Position numbers: made by a program. A stretch of 64,000 nt of DNA, taken from NCBI RefSeq assembly GCF_050320075.1, contig NZ_CP190018.1; one strand, written 5' to 3'. Position 1 is the first letter of the stretch. Every line of letters starts with the position of its first letter. Shown here one piece after another: positions 1 through 6,000 of the stretch. Origin of the DNA: Escherichia coli (GTDB taxonomy: Bacteria; Pseudomonadota; Gammaproteobacteria; Enterobacterales; Enterobacteriaceae).

Positions 1-3000
1 TGCTGCTGTCCCTGCAGGCGATGGCCGCCGTACAGGAGAGTACGCAGCAGGGAACGCGCACCTCCTCATCCTCTCAGGTCAGTACCACCACACAGGAACT
101 GCAGCAGCAGGCCGGGCAGTGGGGACTCAGTGAGGAAGATTACCGGCGTTACCGTACCCTGATGGAAGGTCCCCGCGGTATTCAGTCTCCGGGGCTGGAC
201 CCGCTGACGGTACTGGGGATTGAAGCGCGGACGGATGCAGAGCGCAGGGTGCTGGCCGAAAAATGGGTTAAAGCTGAGTATGAACGCACTGAGAAGGAAC
301 TGGCTTTCCAGCGTGAAGTGAATGCCGCCTGGAAACGGTTGTATCCGGGGGTGATGCCGGTCAGCCTGGGGAATTCTGCCGGCATCGCCCGTGACACCGG
401 GGGACGTCTTGCCCTGTTTGTCAGGTCGAAAGACTGCAGTACCTGTGATGCGCGGCTGGCCGCCGTGCTTTCATCCGGTCGTCAGGTGGATATTTACCTG
501 GTCGACAGTCAGGGAAATGATGAAAAGCTGAGGCAGTGGGCCCGGGAGCACAGTATCCCGGCAGACCGTGTGCGCAGTCGCCACATCACGCTGAACCATG
601 ACGGCGGTCGCTGGCTGCGGTTTGGGGAGGGGAGAATGCCGGTGGTACTTCAGCAGGGGGCTGACGGATGGCGCGTGGCAGCCTTCTGATGTCGCTGCTG
701 CTGATGGCAGTCAGCATTCCGGCGGGGGCGGCGCTGCATGATATCCCGGAGGGATACGTGCGTGTGGCGGAACAGCATGGTGTTCCGGCAGAAGTACTCT
801 ATGCCGTCTCGCTGACCGAGACGGCCATGGTCCCCTCCGCCATTGGTGCTGTAATGAAAAAACGGAATGAGGATTACAGGGTACCAGCAGTGGCACGTCC
901 CTGGCCCTGGACCATCAATGTGGCGGGCCGGGGATACCGCTATGCCAGTCGACTGGAGGCCTGGCAGGCCCTCCAGGTTTTTCTGAAACGATATCCGGCC
1001 CGACGGATTGATGTGGGGATAGCCCAGGTCAATCTGGGCTGGAACGGGCACCGTTTTGCGTCCACATGGGCGGCATTTGACCCGTACACCAGTCTGAACA
1101 CGGCGGCGGTCATCCTGAGAGAATGTCGCCGTCGCCATCCTGACAGCTGGCTGCAGGCTGCCGGCTGTTATCACCATCCGGCAGGCGGCGCACCCGCAGT
1201 ACGCTACATCGCGCTGGTGAGGCGGCATATTGACCGCCTCCACCGTGATGCGGTCAGTACGTCAGGTGTGACTGCCATGAATCCCCGTTATATCCGGACA
1301 GAACCCCGGGAGTTAACCCCATGAAACGATTTAAACGATATGTCATGACGACCGCAACGGGTCTGTTGCTGTGCGCGGCTCAGGCCGGCGCGGAGCTCAG
1401 GGTGATTGCTGACCTTGGTGGCAGTGATGCCGGCAGGTTTTATGAAGCAATAAACCGCCAGGCGGACAGCGGAACGTCGTCGCCTGTAACGGCGCTGCTG
1501 CCGCAGGGGGAGAGTGCGATGCTGCCTGTTTCCACGCCGGAAATGTCTCCCGGAGAGGTGACGCCGAGGCCACTGCAGTTACCGGGGCTGGGGGCACTGT
1601 TCCTCGTGGGGGATGATGCACTCTCCCGTCAGTGGCTGCAGGCGAATGCGGCCGCGCTGCTTGAAAGGAAGGCTGCCGGTATGGTGGTGAGCGTGACGAA
1701 TGAGAGCGGTCTGCAGGCGCTGCGGGCGCTGGCTCCCGGTGTGATGATGGTACCGGCTTCCGGTTCAGCACTGGCCCGCCGTCTGCAGCTTGACCACTGG
1801 CCGGTGCTGATAACGGACAGTGGTATCAGCAGTGTGGTGATGCCGTGATGCAGAGACAACTGACGGACCTGTTACAGGAAGGCGCGTGGCACGGCATTCT
1901 GCTGTGCGTTCTGGTCGTGCTGTTTCTGTTTTTTCCGCGCCTGTGGGGGCGATGCAGGCATCGTGAACGCGCCAGTGAGCGTCGTCACCGCCGTTACCGC
2001 GCTGCGGCTGAACGTGTGCTGACAAAGCTGCCGGAAGGTGGGGCGGGTGTGAAATACCTGCGAAAAATTAACCCGTATGTGTTTGAAGAACTGCTGCTTC
2101 TGGCGTTTGAACGCAGGGGGATGGCGGTCATCCGTAACACACGTTACAGCGGAGATGGTGGCCTGGATGGTCAGGTGCTGATTGACGGCGAGCGGTGGCT
2201 GATTCAGGCCAAACGTTACGGACGGACCATCCGTCCGTCACATATTGATGATTTTGGTGACCTGCTGCGCCGTGAAGGCTGCCGTGGATTTTTTATTCAC
2301 ACCGGTCGTACGGGACCGGCCAGCCGGGCACGGCTGGCGCTGTGGCCGGATATTGAGCTGGTCAGCGGGCAGCGTCTGCTGAAACTGCTGAACGGGGCAT
2401 TGCTGCCGGATGAACTTACCAGAGGAGCGCGGAGATGATGACGGTAAAACGGATGTTTATGTTTTTATTCAGAATAACGATTGTCTGGCCATCCGTGCTG
2501 ACAGGATGCGTGATGATGCTGTATTTCGCGAAGGTCGCCGGCGGTGGTGTGGCGGGACTGGAGCAGCGTTACGGGGTGGAATCCGCCCGCTGGCGTGATG
2601 CGCCGGAAGGGATGGTGATGACAGTGCAGTGCCCGTCGCGTCCCTTTATGGCGTCTGTGAGCACCGGGGAGTGGCGTGCACTGGCTGCATCTGATGATGA
2701 ATGCAGCCAGGTTTCGCGCTCTTTCAGAGAAGCTGCAGAGGGCGATGCGCAGTCGCTGCGCAGAGTGGCAGTGACACTGCTGCTGGCATCCGTGGTTCTG
2801 GAAGCGTTTTCAGCCTGCATTCTGCGCCGGGTAACGGCATCCGTCCGGGTATCACCACACTGTGGATATGGCTGCGGACGTGGTGCGGTGGCGCACTGGC
2901 CAGAGAGCAGCGTTCACACTGCACCGGAGAAAGGAGAGCGGGTGTGAACGTTTCATTTACTGAACAGGTGCAGAGGGATATGCCGCAATGGGCGAATGAC

Positions 3001-6000
3001 CCGTTACTGGCATGGGATGCCACCGCGTTTGCGGCAATGTCGGATTTTATTACAGAGCACTACTGGACGGGACAGGGCAGCATCAATGTGTTCCGCATTG
3101 TGGGAACTGACCATCCACAGTATGCCGGAATGACCTGGCTGGAGCTGCTGGAGCGCGGTAACCGTATGGACATCAATATCCCGTTACTGGAAAAAAATCC
3201 GGGATACTACACGCAGGCAGAGCAACAGCATGCCGGGATGAGTTTTGTCAGCACGGATGGCGTTGACTGGTATGTCAGTACAGACGGCAATCACCGCAGT
3301 TGCCTGGCCCGCTTTCTGTTTCACCTGCAGGGGGAGGAGCGCACACAGCTTCACAACGTGGCAAAGAGTATTTATCACACAGACCGGGCCTTCTGGTCTG
3401 CCTGCCGGGAAATCCACAACCTGACTGACGCGCTGTCCCGGCATGGTGTGTATATCCGTCTGCAGACCCGACGGCAGTGTGTTGCCCGCGAAGACCTGGC
3501 CTGCTGGAAAGTGGACCGTTTCAGCACAGAGGCGCAGCTGACAGTGGATGACGTGCGTGCCGGCGGACATGATATGCCTGCGGTGTATAAGACGTTGCTG
3601 CTGAATGCGGCAGACGCATGGCGTGAGGTGATGGTATTACAGCGCAGACTGGAGGCGCTGTCTGCATCACCGGGGAACGATTTGCCACGCACATGGTGGC
3701 GACGTCTTTTACGGAAGGGGGACATGTAATGAGCAACCGCTATGTCATTGAGGCATTGCTGAGACCGGCTGTGGAGTTCAATACGGCAGTGGTGGCAGCA
3801 ACAGCAGCATGTATCTGTGTGACAGCCCCCTGGGCGGTGGCGCTGGCACCCACCGTCAGTTACGCCACTGCCGGTGGATTTGCCCTGCTGGCCGTGGTGC
3901 GTTTCCGGCAGGGGATGAACATCATCCGGTATCGCCGTAATCTGCGCCGGCTGCCCCGCTATGTGATGAGTACACGGCAGATCCCGCTCAGCCGTCAGCG
4001 GCTGTTTCTGGGGCGGGGATTTCGCTGGACCCAGAAGCATACCCAGCGTCTCCAGGATACGCTGCGACCGGAGGTGGCACACTATCTGCAGCCGGGCGGA
4101 CTTTACCGGCTGGCGCGCTGGCTGGAAATGAAAACGGAACACCGTCTGCCCGCGCTGGGGAAACTGCTCCGGCATGAGTCGTCGCTGAATCCTGTGCGTC
4201 CTCTGCCGCCGGTGGGGGGAAATCCCGCCCTGCATGGTATTGAGCCGGATGAACAGGATGTGACGCTGGCTCTGGGGGAGCGTGTGGGGCATACCATTGT
4301 CTACGGCACCACCCGTGTCGGTAAAACCCGCCTGGCAGAACTGCTGGTCACTCAGGATATCCGCAGGGGAGAGGTGACCATTGTGTTTGATCCCAAAGGT
4401 GATGCTGATCTGCTGCTGCGTGTCTGGGCGGAAGCACACCGTGCCGGGCGGGGTGATGAACTGTATATTTTCCATCTGGGATGGCCGGAAATTTCGGCCC
4501 GATATAATGCGGTGGGACGCTTCGGGCGTGTTTCGGAAGTGGCTTCCCGTGTGGCCGGGCAGTTGTCCGGTGAAGGGAACTCGGCGGCTTTCCGTGAGTT
4601 CGCCTGGCGGTTCGTCAACATCATTTCCCGCGCCCTGGTGGCACTCGGTGAGCGCCCGGACTACCTGCTGATTGTGCGGTATGTGAACAACATAGCCGAT
4701 CTCTATATCCGCTATGCCGGAAAGGTGATCCGCGAGCGCATGCCGGAACTGGAGCAGGCGATTGCGAATAACCAGAATGTGATCAGCGAGGAGGATGTTC
4801 CCCGCACCATGCAGAACCAGCCGGATGCGGTACGTATCTGGTCCATCGAGATGGCCCTGAGCAGTGAGGAGGGTAAAAAAATTTACGATCCGATCCTGGA
4901 CGGGCTTCGCAGTGCGGTCCGCTATGACCGTACCTATTTTGACAAAATCGTGGCGTCCCTGCTGCCGCTGCTGGAAAAACTCACCACGGGCAGGATCGCA
5001 GAGCTGCTGGCACCGGACTATCTGGACATGAACGATGCGCGACCGATTTTTGACTGGGAACAGGTGATCCGTAAAAAGGCGGTGGTCTATATCGGCCTGG
5101 ATGCACTCAGCGACAGTGTGGTAGCCAGTGCTGTGGGGAATTCGATGTTTGCGGACCTGGTGAGCGTGGCGGGGCATATCTACAAGCACGGCATGCATGC
5201 CGGTCTGCCCGGTAAGGGGGAAGGCAAAAATGTGGTGAACCTGCACTGCGATGAGTTTAACGAACTGATGGGGGATGAGTTTATTCCGCTCATTAACAAG
5301 GGGGGCGGTGCCGGTATGCAGGTCACCGCGTACACCCAGACATCGTCAGATATTGAAGCGCGTATCGGTAATGCAGCCAAAACGGCGCAGGTTCAGGGAA
5401 ACTTCAACAACATGATCATGCTGCGTGTCAGGGAGAACAGAACGGCAGAGCTGCTGACCACACAACTGCCTCAGGTGGAGATCTACACCAAGACGCTGGT
5501 CTCCGGTCACCAGGATACGGCGGACGTGTCTGCCGGTCAGGATTTCACGTCCAGCACCCAGGATCGTGTCGGCACGGTGAAGGTACCTCTGCTGGAGCCG
5601 TCAGATATTGTCACCCTGCCCAAGGGACAGGCGTTTGCCCTGCTGGAAGGGGGGCAGCTGTGGAAAATCCGGATGCCGCTGCCGGCAGGGGATACGGATG
5701 ACGTGCTGATGCCGGAGAACATTGCCCGGGTGGCAGAGGCGATGAGACAGAACTATCACACCGGTGAAGGATGGTGGAATGAGCCGCCGTCAGCGCAGGC
5801 CGCCGGAACAGATGAAGGAGGCGGATATGGCGGAAGCGCGTCGTGATGCGGAACGCAGCCCGCAGTCCCGGGCGCCCCGTCAGCATGGTCTGCTGTACAA
5901 TCTGGTGTGGGGCTGGCCGTGGGCACTGGTGGGGCTGATTTTATCCTCCCTGCTGCTGAGTCTGTTGATTGAGTATGCCGGTATGACGTTTTTCTGGAGT

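What the first reader, a model, noticed from the sequence alone, without database searches (positions are those of the whole stretch)
1848..3729. Two nuclease-fold candidates embedded in the transfer operon upstream of traD
A membrane-anchored Mrr-catalytic-domain-like protein and a DGNHR-motif protein are translationally coupled into the transfer operon. Nuclease folds here could act in DNA processing during transfer or in exclusion of incoming DNA; their function is not clear from sequence.
Basis: inference. Interest (0 to 1): 0.45.

Follow-up and report, generated by a model that had tools for sequence, protein, structure and literature searches.

The report
Accessory nuclease genes beside ICE traD
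Between two conserved transfer genes of a mobile element in an E. coli chromosome sit three optional genes: a membrane-anchored DNA-cutting enzyme that looks intact, a small membrane protein, and a protein of a widespread unnamed family, and none of them belongs to the core DNA-transfer machine.

Summary
They lie between the DUF2859 gene and traD of an SPI-7-type ICE in an E. coli chromosome.

- **A (1848-2438):** a single-pass membrane protein with a cytoplasmic Mrr_cat nuclease domain. Its catalytic D107 and Q120-A-K122 align with EcoKMrr D203 and Q219-A-K221. It lacks Mrr's N-terminal reader domain.
- **B (2435-2947):** a small, narrowly distributed protein with two hydrophobic helices.
- **C (2944-3729):** the DGNHR motif is real and nearly invariant across at least 380 clusters with no Pfam or NCBIfam model. 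A confident structure model matches no solved structure, and the ParB/Srx link is not significant. "Nuclease fold" is therefore unproven for C.

The slot is empty in the transfer-proficient ICEclc and ICEHin1056. Elsewhere it holds A alone, C alone, A+C or A+B+C, so these are accessory genes, not T4SS parts.

My best guess, at low confidence, is that A is a membrane-confined endonuclease co-expressed with the mating apparatus, comparable to SNIPE. C would be an independent DNA-processing or establishment factor specific to conjugative elements.

The parts
1321..1848 (+). Upstream boundary of the slot: the DUF2859 / TIGR03765 (PFL_4695 family) ICE protein
   Evidence: PF11072 E=2.6e-47 and TIGR03765 E=2.1e-38. 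The ICEclc homolog is orf71178 (PMC10018362).
1848..2438 (+). Gene A: a 196-aa inner-membrane-tethered Mrr-type PD-(D/E)xK endonuclease, annotated by PGAP as 'restriction endonuclease'
   Evidence: Mrr_cat PF04471 E=1.9e-19 over the full model. hhalign against EcoKMrr gives 97% probability, E=1.2e-10. 864 homologs were found. dN/dS is 0.24 against the L061 variant.
1884..1946 (+). A: single transmembrane helix (residues 13-33, AWHGILLCVLVVLFLFFPRLW)
   Evidence: Kyte-Doolittle windows score above 1.6. This region is the least conserved part of the family, at 36% mean identity.
1947..2027 (+). A: basic juxtamembrane linker containing the conserved RRHRRYR stretch
   Evidence: 11 K/R against 3 D/E. 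By the positive-inside rule this places the nuclease domain in the cytoplasm (inference). R46, H47 and Y50 are invariant.
2061..2393 (+). A: Mrr_cat catalytic domain. It includes E80/E81 (FEELL), D107 at 2166-2168 (in GDGGLDG) and Q120-A-K122 at 2205-2213.
   Evidence: These residues are invariant in 23 orthologs. D107 aligns with EcoKMrr D203 and QAK with Q219-A220-K221. D203A inactivates Mrr (PMC5435990).
2435..2947 (+). Gene B: a 170-aa protein with two hydrophobic helices (residues 8-28 and 112-131) and conserved cysteines.
   Evidence: No hit in Pfam, NCBIfam or PADLOC. Only 11 clusters were found, those named by a source being E. coli. It is absent from the Serratia, Salmonella and Edwardsiella versions of the slot. 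The lipobox cysteine is not conserved. dN/dS is 0.47.
2944..3729 (+). Gene C: a 261-aa soluble two-domain protein of an unnamed family specific to conjugative elements. The start is most likely the GTG at 2944; PGAP uses the ATG at 2980.
   Evidence: A strong Shine-Dalgarno sequence, AAAGGAGAG, lies at 2930-2938, and the N-terminal 12 residues are conserved. 380 50%-identity clusters match at E<=1e-3. No Pfam or NCBIfam hit. AF2 pLDDT 93.5, pTM 0.85.
3283..3297 (+). C: the DGNHR motif (residues 114-118), at the junction between strand 109-112 and helix 116-128 of the model
   Evidence: Coordinates checked. Conservation: D 85%, G 97%, N 80%, H 91%, R 96% of 113 homologs. Secondary structure.
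3346..3666 (+). C: C-terminal beta-alpha-beta-beta-beta-alpha domain containing the conserved R182-E-D184-x-x-G-W188
3729..5846 (+). Downstream boundary of the slot: the type IV coupling protein TraD
   Evidence: TIGR03754 scores 1086.7 bits. Its start overlaps the stop codon of C by 1 nt.

Best explanation
Window 1848-3729 is an accessory-gene slot between the DUF2859 gene and traD in the transfer operon of an SPI-7-type (MPF_G) ICE in an E. coli chromosome.

**Shown**
- Three genes with overlapping start and stop codons fill the slot.
- A has a short N-terminus predicted to be periplasmic, one variable TM helix, a conserved basic linker and a cytoplasmic Mrr_cat PD-(D/E)xK domain. Its catalytic Asp and QxK are invariant.
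- A lacks the N-terminal modification-reading domain of true Mrr enzymes.
- B is a small, fast-evolving, narrowly distributed membrane protein.
- C is a soluble two-domain protein of a large unnamed family. That family occurs in conjugative elements of several MPF types and phyla. Its DGNHR motif is nearly invariant, and its confidently predicted fold has no significant match in the PDB.
- None of the three belongs to the core MPF_G machinery.

**Inferred**
- A is an active dsDNA endonuclease held at the cytoplasmic face of the inner membrane.
- It is produced only together with the mating apparatus and coupling protein.
- It cuts DNA that appears at the envelope, such as phage or rival-element DNA entering cells that display the ICE pilus and T4SS. 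The chromosome would be spared by spatial confinement, as shown for the membrane-bound nuclease SNIPE.
- C acts independently of A as a phosphate-, nucleotide- or DNA-binding accessory factor of DNA processing or establishment. Elsewhere it travels with TraD or with the SSB/topoisomerase III module.
For: **Identity and anatomy**
- ORFs, family matches, annotation and junctions.
- A's catalytic residues align with EcoKMrr D203 and Q219-A-K221, and D203A is a catalytic-null mutation (PMC5435990).
- They are invariant in 23 orthologs.
- The TM region is 36% identical across the family, against 73% for the nuclease domain.
- A, B and C are all under purifying selection, with dN/dS of 0.24, 0.47 and 0.30.

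**Accessory status**
- The slot is empty in ICEclc, where 22 of the 24 T4SS-region ORFs were deleted one by one (PMC10018362).
- It is also empty in ICEHin1056.
- It holds A only in Salmonella, C only in Edwardsiella, A+C in Serratia and A+B+C in E. coli.
- dS of B and C is 2-4 times lower than in the flanking genes, which suggests recent module exchange.

**Where C is found**
- Next to traD, or inside PFL_4669-DUF3158-C-SSB-TopoIII modules.
- Next to F-type and P-type tra genes and a relaxase C-terminal domain.
- In MPF_T Phaeobacter plasmids beside SSB, SNase and ParB genes.

**Precedents**
- SNIPE is an N-out single-TM protein with a cytoplasmic nuclease that cleaves DNA as it enters the cell (bioRxiv 10.1101/2025.11.03.685801).
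- Pseudomonas MPF_G islands have a defence/anti-defence hotspot bounded by DUF2859 (PMC12629846).
Against: - No experiment bears on any of the three proteins.
- A has no recognisable DNA-recognition or partner domain. Its substrate, activity and topology are all inferred.
- Conjugative DNA enters as ssDNA, which PD-(D/E)xK enzymes usually do not cut. Exclusion of rival conjugative elements is therefore less likely than action on dsDNA.
- A matches PADLOC models only weakly, and only through the shared nuclease domain (PDC-S02 E=8.7e-7, mREase_IV E=3.4e-5).
- Tight coupling to traD fits a role in the ICE's own DNA processing equally well.
- C's function is essentially open. Its context argues for DNA handling but does not say which step.
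Confidence: 0.4

Rival explanations
1. A and/or C are helpers of the ICE's own DNA processing. They would be tethered near or delivered to the coupling protein TraD. They might resolve or trim replicative or excised dsDNA intermediates, assist the relaxosome, or act on the transferred strand during establishment in the recipient.
For: All three genes are translationally coupled to traD. C homologs lie beside TraD, a relaxase C-terminal domain, SSB and topoisomerase III in many elements. In ICEHin1056, mutants in orf10 and topB of the module that carries ssb transfer 10^3- to 10^5-fold less efficiently (PMC3739013).
Against: ICEclc and ICEHin1056 both transfer without any gene in this slot. ICEHin1056 also has no C homolog between DUF3158 and ssb, nor anywhere in the record by tblastn. 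A and C occur independently of each other.
Confidence: 0.22
2. C would be a divergent ParB/Srx-fold enzyme, either a nuclease or an NTPase, and DGNHR would be its catalytic or phosphate-binding loop, as in DGQHR/DndB, sulfiredoxin or the ParB GERRxR motif.
Confidence: 0.2
3. The three genes are a self-contained selfish or conflict cassette. Examples would be a nuclease toxin with a membrane partner, or an entry-exclusion factor (B). On this view they merely hitch-hike in a permissive intergenic site and have no link to T4SS function.
For: The combinations are patchy and modular, and dS indicates recent exchange of B-C. B is a small, fast-evolving membrane protein, as exclusion factors typically are (the comparison is from general knowledge).
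Against: A occurs alone at the same site in Salmonella, with no partner. B is confined to a narrow group of ICEs, those named being from E. coli. The genes have no promoter of their own and are overlapped into the operon. A's position is conserved across Enterobacterales.
Confidence: 0.12

Closest known systems
EcoKMrr, the Type IV methyl-directed restriction enzyme (Pfam Mrr_cat PF04471)
   Same: A shares the C-terminal PD-(D/E)xK catalytic domain. It is 29% identical over 133 aligned columns, and GDGGxDG, QAKR and the helix FE motif are all conserved.
   Different: A has no Mrr_N winged-helix reader domain. Its first roughly 68 residues are a TM helix and a basic linker. It is encoded inside an ICE transfer operon, and its target and regulation are unknown.
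SNIPE, a membrane-bound anti-phage nuclease (bioRxiv 10.1101/2025.11.03.685801)
   Same: Both have a single N-terminal TM helix of variable sequence and a conserved cytoplasmic nuclease domain at the C-terminus. SNIPE shows that membrane confinement can replace sequence-based discrimination of self from non-self.
   Different: SNIPE uses a GIY-YIG nuclease and needs a DUF4041 DNA- and tape-measure-binding domain. A is less than half the size, uses a PD-(D/E)xK fold, has only a basic linker and is operon-coupled to a T4SS. The analogy is functional and untested.
ParB/Srx superfamily (ParB GERRxR, sulfiredoxin GCHR, DGQHR/DndB)
   Same: C has a DG-x-HR loop between a beta-hairpin and a helix, and the order of secondary-structure elements is compatible.
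   Different: There is no significant similarity in sequence, profile or structure. C also carries an extra beta-alpha-beta-beta-beta-alpha C-terminal domain.
Osa/FiwA, the ParB/Srx-fold fertility-inhibition nuclease of IncW plasmids that targets rival coupling proteins (PMC5696584)
   Same: Both are accessory genes of conjugative elements, linked conceptually to coupling proteins and nucleases. A thermonuclease gene lies nearby in R388, as one does beside the Phaeobacter C homolog.
   Different: No detectable homology: hhalign gives 0.2%. Osa matches Pfam PFIN and C does not. The 'osa homolog' of ICEHin1056, orf10 in the paper, is placed between the lipoprotein gene and topB, a region where tblastn found no C relative, so it appears to be a different gene.
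Defence/anti-defence hotspots of MPF_G genomic islands (PAPI-1 GI-Hotspot 1, bounded by DUF3275 and DUF2859; PMC12629846)
   Same: Both are variable accessory content next to the DUF2859 gene of the same ICE superfamily.
   Different: It was not established whether the Pseudomonas hotspot lies on the same side of DUF2859. The genes found here are not among the defence systems named in that paper.

Membership tests
Mrr_cat / PD-(D/E)xK endonuclease domain (protein A) | Full-length match to the domain model | tested here: met
   PF04471 E=1.9e-19, 70.3 bits against a cutoff of 21, model positions 1-115 of 115.
Mrr_cat / PD-(D/E)xK endonuclease domain (protein A) | Catalytic Asp and (Q/E)xK, plus the helix glutamate, present and conserved | tested here: met
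   D107 aligns with Mrr D203 and Q120-A-K122 with Q219-A-K221. E80, E81, D103, D107, Q120 and K122 are invariant in 23 orthologs. D203A is catalytically dead (PMC5435990).
Mrr_cat / PD-(D/E)xK endonuclease domain (protein A) | Demonstrated DNA cleavage | not testable with these tools
   This needs a nuclease assay with the purified soluble domain.
Type IV methyl-directed restriction enzyme (EcoKMrr-like, protein A) | N-terminal modification-sensing DNA-binding domain (Mrr_N) fused to the nuclease | tested here: not met
   The alignment covers only Mrr residues 143-285. Residues 1-68 of A are a TM helix and a basic linker. No second Pfam domain was found.
ParB/Srx superfamily (protein C) | Match to a superfamily sequence model (ParBc, DndB/DGQHR, DUF262 and others) | tested here: not met
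   No Pfam or NCBIfam hit for C or for any of 113 family members.
ParB/Srx superfamily (protein C) | Structural similarity of the fold | tested here: inconclusive
ParB/Srx superfamily (protein C) | Significant profile-profile similarity across the core | tested here: inconclusive
   hhalign gives 15.7% (P=0.0017, 30 columns) and 1.6% (P=0.03, 22 columns). Both alignments are centred on the motif. The ParB/Srx alignments used were small and hand-made.
ParB/Srx superfamily (protein C) | Conserved Gx(H/R)R loop at a strand-to-helix junction | tested here: met
   DGNHR at residues 114-118 lies between strand 109-112 and helix 116-128. G, H and R are kept in 91-97% of homologs.
Osa/FiwA fertility-inhibition factor (PFIN, protein C) | Homology to Osa/FiwA | tested here: not met
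   hhalign probability is 0.2% against R388 FiwA. FiwA matches PF22162 and C-family members do not.
Core MPF_G (GI-type) T4SS component (A, B and C) | Present in the transfer-proficient model elements of the family | tested here: not met
   ICEclc runs orf71178 (DUF2859) directly into orf68987 (TraD) (PMC10018362 Table 1). In ICEHin1056 the DUF2859 gene overlaps traD. Combinations vary in other ICEs.
SNIPE defence system (protein A) | DUF4041 domain plus a GIY-YIG nuclease behind an N-terminal TM helix | tested here: not met
   A has the TM helix and a cytoplasmic nuclease, but the nuclease is Mrr_cat and no DUF4041 is present (SNIPE architecture). The resemblance is functional and architectural only.

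The most novel reading that the evidence does not exclude
A, possibly tuned by B, is an ICE-encoded PD-(D/E)xK nuclease confined to the membrane and switched on with the mating apparatus. It would destroy foreign dsDNA entering at the envelope of transfer-competent cells. That would be a SNIPE-like spatial immunity built into a conjugation operon.

Separately, C would found a new fold family of conjugative-element-specific proteins that bind DNA or nucleotides. It would act at the coupling protein or with the SSB/topoisomerase III step.
Probability: 0.2. Interest if true: 0.7.

Novelty: new variant of a known kind. Interest (0 to 1): 0.4.

Why it matters
**Protein A.** If A is an active nuclease that works at the membrane only while the T4SS is expressed, it would be a second, independently evolved case of spatial discrimination between self and foreign DNA. 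It would also show that ICEs protect their rare transfer-competent cells, or fight rival elements, from inside the transfer operon.

**Protein C.** C is worth attention whatever A turns out to do. Its family has at least 380 clusters at 50% identity. It occurs in conjugative elements from Proteobacteria to Nitrospirota, Campylobacterota and Bacteroidota. It has no family model, no solved relative and a near-invariant phosphate-binding-like loop, so it is a reasonable target for structural and biochemical work.

**Practical relevance.** This ICE carries mcr-1, so factors that affect its spread bear on colistin resistance.

Tried and rejected
1. **C as an Osa/FiwA relative.** The lead came from the 'osa homolog' reported in ICEHin1056 (PMC2258188, PMC3739013). 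I rejected it. hhalign against R388 FiwA gives 0.2%, FiwA matches PFIN and C does not, and no C relative was found in ICEHin1056.
2. **C always paired with a nuclease.** Mrr_cat precedes C in Enterobacterales, and an SNase gene overlaps it in Phaeobacter. I rejected this as a rule. The upstream neighbours in 29 diverse loci are assorted conjugation genes (TraH, TraF, TrbI, TrbM, TraV, TraI_2_C, ProQ), and SNase appears only once.
3. **Direct sequence searches of A, B and C against the PDB, including profiles.** Nothing useful came back.
4. **A first AF2 model from 20 close homologs.** It was mediocre (pLDDT 76) and I replaced it.
5. **Harvesting ParB homologs from viral contigs to build a profile.** No relatives were found. 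The ICE ParB alone against the PDB gave only a weak KorB hit.
6. **The search for related loci with the 113-sequence alignment.** It failed for lack of a conserved stretch. A 36-sequence alignment worked.
7. **B as a lipoprotein.** The LTGC lipobox cysteine is not conserved in homolog P0159.
8. **The 623-aa antisense ORF at 3375-5246 and other minus-strand ORFs**. I treated these as artefacts of high GC content overlapping traD and C.
9. **PAPI-1 literature for a phenotype of the C homolog.** The key paper is not held, and PMC8565334 does not mention the neighbouring genes.

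
Full report
**Where the window comes from**

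Bases 1300-6000 are 100% identical to E. coli YZLc1-3 chromosome NZ_CP123240.1 at 893886-898586. Window coordinate equals record coordinate minus 892586. Related sequence is present in 109 of 5426 complete E. coli genomes: 35 at ≥99% identity and 74 at 80-90%.

The element is integrated next to a tRNA-Ser gene. It carries ParA, an 'SPI-7-type island replicative DNA helicase', ParB, STY4528 and STY4534 family proteins, PFL_4669, topoisomerase III, SSB and PilL. These are followed by the TIGR037xx genes of the GI-type (MPF_G) T4SS, a type IVb pilus operon, a TraI-domain protein (presumably the relaxase) and an integrase. It is therefore an SPI-7/PFGI-1/ICEclc-superfamily ICE.

**The observation**

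On the + strand the order is:
- TIGR03759 protein (21-689)
- SLT transglycosylase (668-1324)
- DUF2859/TIGR03765 protein (1321-1848)
- A (1848-2438)
- B (2435-2947)
- C (2944-3729)
- traD (3729-5846)
- TIGR03747 protein

Every junction from DUF2859 to traD overlaps by 1-4 nt: TGATG, ATGA, GTGA and TAATG. No sigma-70-like promoter was found in 1-7500. This fits a single translationally coupled operon.

PGAP starts C at the ATG at 2980. The GTG at 2944 is more likely. It has a strong AAAGGAGAG Shine-Dalgarno sequence 6 nt upstream, and the extra 12 residues are conserved in homologs and modelled as a confident helix.

**Protein A**

A matches Pfam Mrr_cat end to end (E=1.9e-19). A profile of 23 orthologs aligns with the C-terminal half of E. 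coli K-12 Mrr at 97% probability (E=1.2e-10, 133 columns). In that alignment:
- GDGGLDG pairs with Mrr GDGGIDG, so A-D107 corresponds to Mrr-D203.
- Q120-A-K122 pairs with Q219-A-K221.

D203A is the established catalytic-null mutation of Mrr (PMC5435990). These residues, together with the FEELL helix glutamates, are invariant across orthologs.

The alignment covers only Mrr residues 143-285, so A lacks Mrr's N-terminal reader domain. In its place A has:
- twelve residues of net charge −1
- one hydrophobic helix at residues 13-33
- a linker with 11 K/R against 3 D/E, which contains a conserved RRHRRYR stretch

By the positive-inside rule the nuclease domain faces the cytoplasm; this is an inference. 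Mean pairwise identity is 36% in the N-terminal and TM part and 73% in the nuclease domain. dN/dS against a diverged E. coli variant is 0.24.

A has 864 homologs at E≤1e-3. Those named by a source among the listed best 120 are from Enterobacterales and are annotated 'restriction endonuclease'. A few are fused to DUF2859, which confirms that the two genes are conserved neighbours. PADLOC gives only weak hits through the nuclease domain.

**Protein B**

B is 170 aa with two hydrophobic helices and conserved cysteines. It has no family hit. Only 11 clusters were found, those named by a source being E. coli. The lipobox cysteine is not conserved. It has the highest dN/dS of the three, 0.47.

**Protein C**

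The word-indexed search found only 30 relatives. An exhaustive profile search found 380 clusters at E≤1e-3, of which 86 were at E≤1e-30. None of 113 diverse members matches any Pfam or NCBIfam model, and no PDB sequence matches the profile.

Conservation centres on SINVF-VVGT-HP-Y, W65, GKRM-xN, NPxYY, DGNHR(T/S)C(I/L)A-F and R-x-D-xxGW.

With the 113-sequence alignment AlphaFold2 gives pLDDT 93.5 and pTM 0.85. The model has two parts:
- an N-terminal α/β domain, in which DGNHR sits between strand 109-112 and helix 116-128
- a C-terminal β-α-β-β-β-α domain

Searches with this model were as follows.
- Foldseek against the PDB finds nothing below E=0.094.

hhalign against ParB, sulfiredoxin and small ParB/Srx alignments always places DGNHR in register with GERR or GCHR. 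It reaches only 15.7% (P=0.0017) and then 1.6% (P=0.03) with a broader alignment.

I therefore regard the ParB/Srx reading as an unproven motif-level resemblance. A caveat applies: I could not search the isolated N-terminal domain, and my ParB/Srx profiles were small.

**Context across elements**

| Element | Content of the DUF2859-traD slot | Calls |
|---|---|---|
| ICEclc (DUF2859 orf71178 directly followed by TraD orf68987) | empty | 45 (PMC10018362 Table 1) |
| ICEHin1056 | empty | 95 |
| Salmonella | A only | 74 |
| Edwardsiella | C only | 72 |
| Serratia, and locus L002 | A + C | 33, 72 |
| E. coli | A + B + C | 75 |

In ICEclc, 22 of the 24 ORFs of this region were deleted individually. 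Two Thiothrix loci also have C directly upstream of traD, without a detected DUF2859 gene.

Elsewhere C sits in other places:
- In Pasteurellaceae, Neisseria, a betaproteobacterial MAG and the Pseudomonas pKLC102/pUM505-type elements, it lies in the PFL_4669-DUF3158-(C)-SSB-TopoIII module.
- In other loci it abuts TraH, TraF, TrbI, TrbM, TraV, a TraI C-terminal domain or ProQ.
- In MPF_T Phaeobacter plasmids a true family member (hhalign 99.5%) overlaps an SNase gene near ssb and parB.

The 46 genomic loci span Gamma-, Beta-, Alpha- and Deltaproteobacteria, Nitrospirota, Campylobacterota, Deferribacterota and Bacteroidota.

C is thus an accessory protein specific to conjugative elements, with no fixed partner. 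A and C are independent of each other, and neither is a structural T4SS component.

Between the two E. coli lineages, dS is 0.39 for B and 0.33 for C. It is 0.88-1.40 for A, DUF2859, SLT and TraD. This suggests the B-C module was exchanged more recently than its flanks.

In Pseudomonas islands of the same superfamily, a defence/anti-defence hotspot bounded by DUF2859 has been described (PMC12629846). I did not verify that it lies on the same side of the gene.

**Mechanism**

Shown:
- an intact Mrr-type active site on a membrane anchor
- co-translation with the coupling protein
- purifying selection
- accessory, modular distribution

Inferred, at low confidence: A cuts dsDNA at the cytoplasmic face of the inner membrane when the T4SS is made. 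Confinement to the membrane, rather than a reader domain, would protect the chromosome. The membrane-bound nuclease SNIPE shows that this logic works: it has an N-out single TM helix and a cytoplasmic GIY-YIG nuclease, cleaves phage DNA during injection, and becomes toxic when the TM helix is removed (bioRxiv 10.1101/2025.11.03.685801). SNIPE shares A's pattern of a variable N-terminus and a conserved nuclease.

A role in the ICE's own DNA processing is the main rival. C's recurrent neighbours (TraD, relaxase, SSB, TopoIII) point to DNA handling or establishment, but no step can be assigned.

**Verdict**

The finding is real and partly well interpreted. A is an ordinary domain in an unusual architecture and location, and is already annotated generically. 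C is a genuinely uncharacterised, widespread family whose 'nuclease fold' label is not supported by the tests I could run. Interest is moderate.

Noticed in passing
window 33372-38025 (- strand): An ISApl1-flanked mcr-1.1 + PAP2 unit, resembling Tn6330, sits inside the ICE next to a traF gene. mcr-1.1 is at 35230-36855, an intact ISApl1 at 37051-38025 and an ISApl1 pseudogene with an internal stop at 33372-34346. This is chromosomal colistin resistance carried on an SPI-7-type ICE in a chicken isolate.
   Followed up: no
It encodes a small protein with two hydrophobic helices, has no family assignment, and was found in only 11 clusters, those named being E. coli. It has the highest dN/dS of the operon genes compared (0.47). 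It could be an exclusion or partner protein, but that is speculative.
   Followed up: partly
window 2944 versus 2980: PGAP's start for gene C, the ATG at 2980, probably truncates it by 12 residues. The GTG at 2944 overlaps B's stop codon (GTGA), has a strong Shine-Dalgarno sequence at 2930-2938, and the extra residues are conserved in homologs.
   Followed up: yes
window 2435-3729 versus L061 4600-5897: Synonymous divergence of B (0.39) and C (0.33) between two E. coli ICE lineages is 2-4 times lower than in the flanking genes: DUF2859 1.40, SLT 1.07, A 0.88, TraD 0.94. This suggests recent recombinational exchange of the B-C module.
   Followed up: partly
L011 4522-5675 (Phaeobacter inhibens plasmid pP78_f): A staphylococcal-nuclease-family gene overlaps the start of a true C-family gene by 4 nt, near ssb and a large parB-like gene. 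This is a second, unrelated nuclease fold directly coupled to a C homolog, although such coupling is not general.
   Followed up: partly
L007 5932-6684 (pUM505) and L037 4971-5723 (P. aeruginosa PA7): In pKLC102/pUM505-type Pseudomonas elements the C homolog follows topA directly. A 629-aa PcfJ-like protein and a DEAD-box helicase come after it, and crpP and ssb lie just upstream.
   Followed up: no
window 28399-28908, and about 42000-53000: The ICE also encodes an ArdA antirestriction protein and a complete type IVb pilus operon with a shufflon-type PilV adhesin.
   Followed up: no
L008 37121-39736 (just upstream of the window): An IS66-family element (ISCro1) is inserted between ssb and pilL of the ICE and splits an Rpn-family gene.
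   Followed up: no
P0034, P0040 (homologs of A): Some database entries fuse DUF2859 and Mrr_cat in a single protein of 276-340 aa. These are probably read-through or frameshift fusions at the 1-nt overlap, and they underline the conserved adjacency.
   Followed up: no
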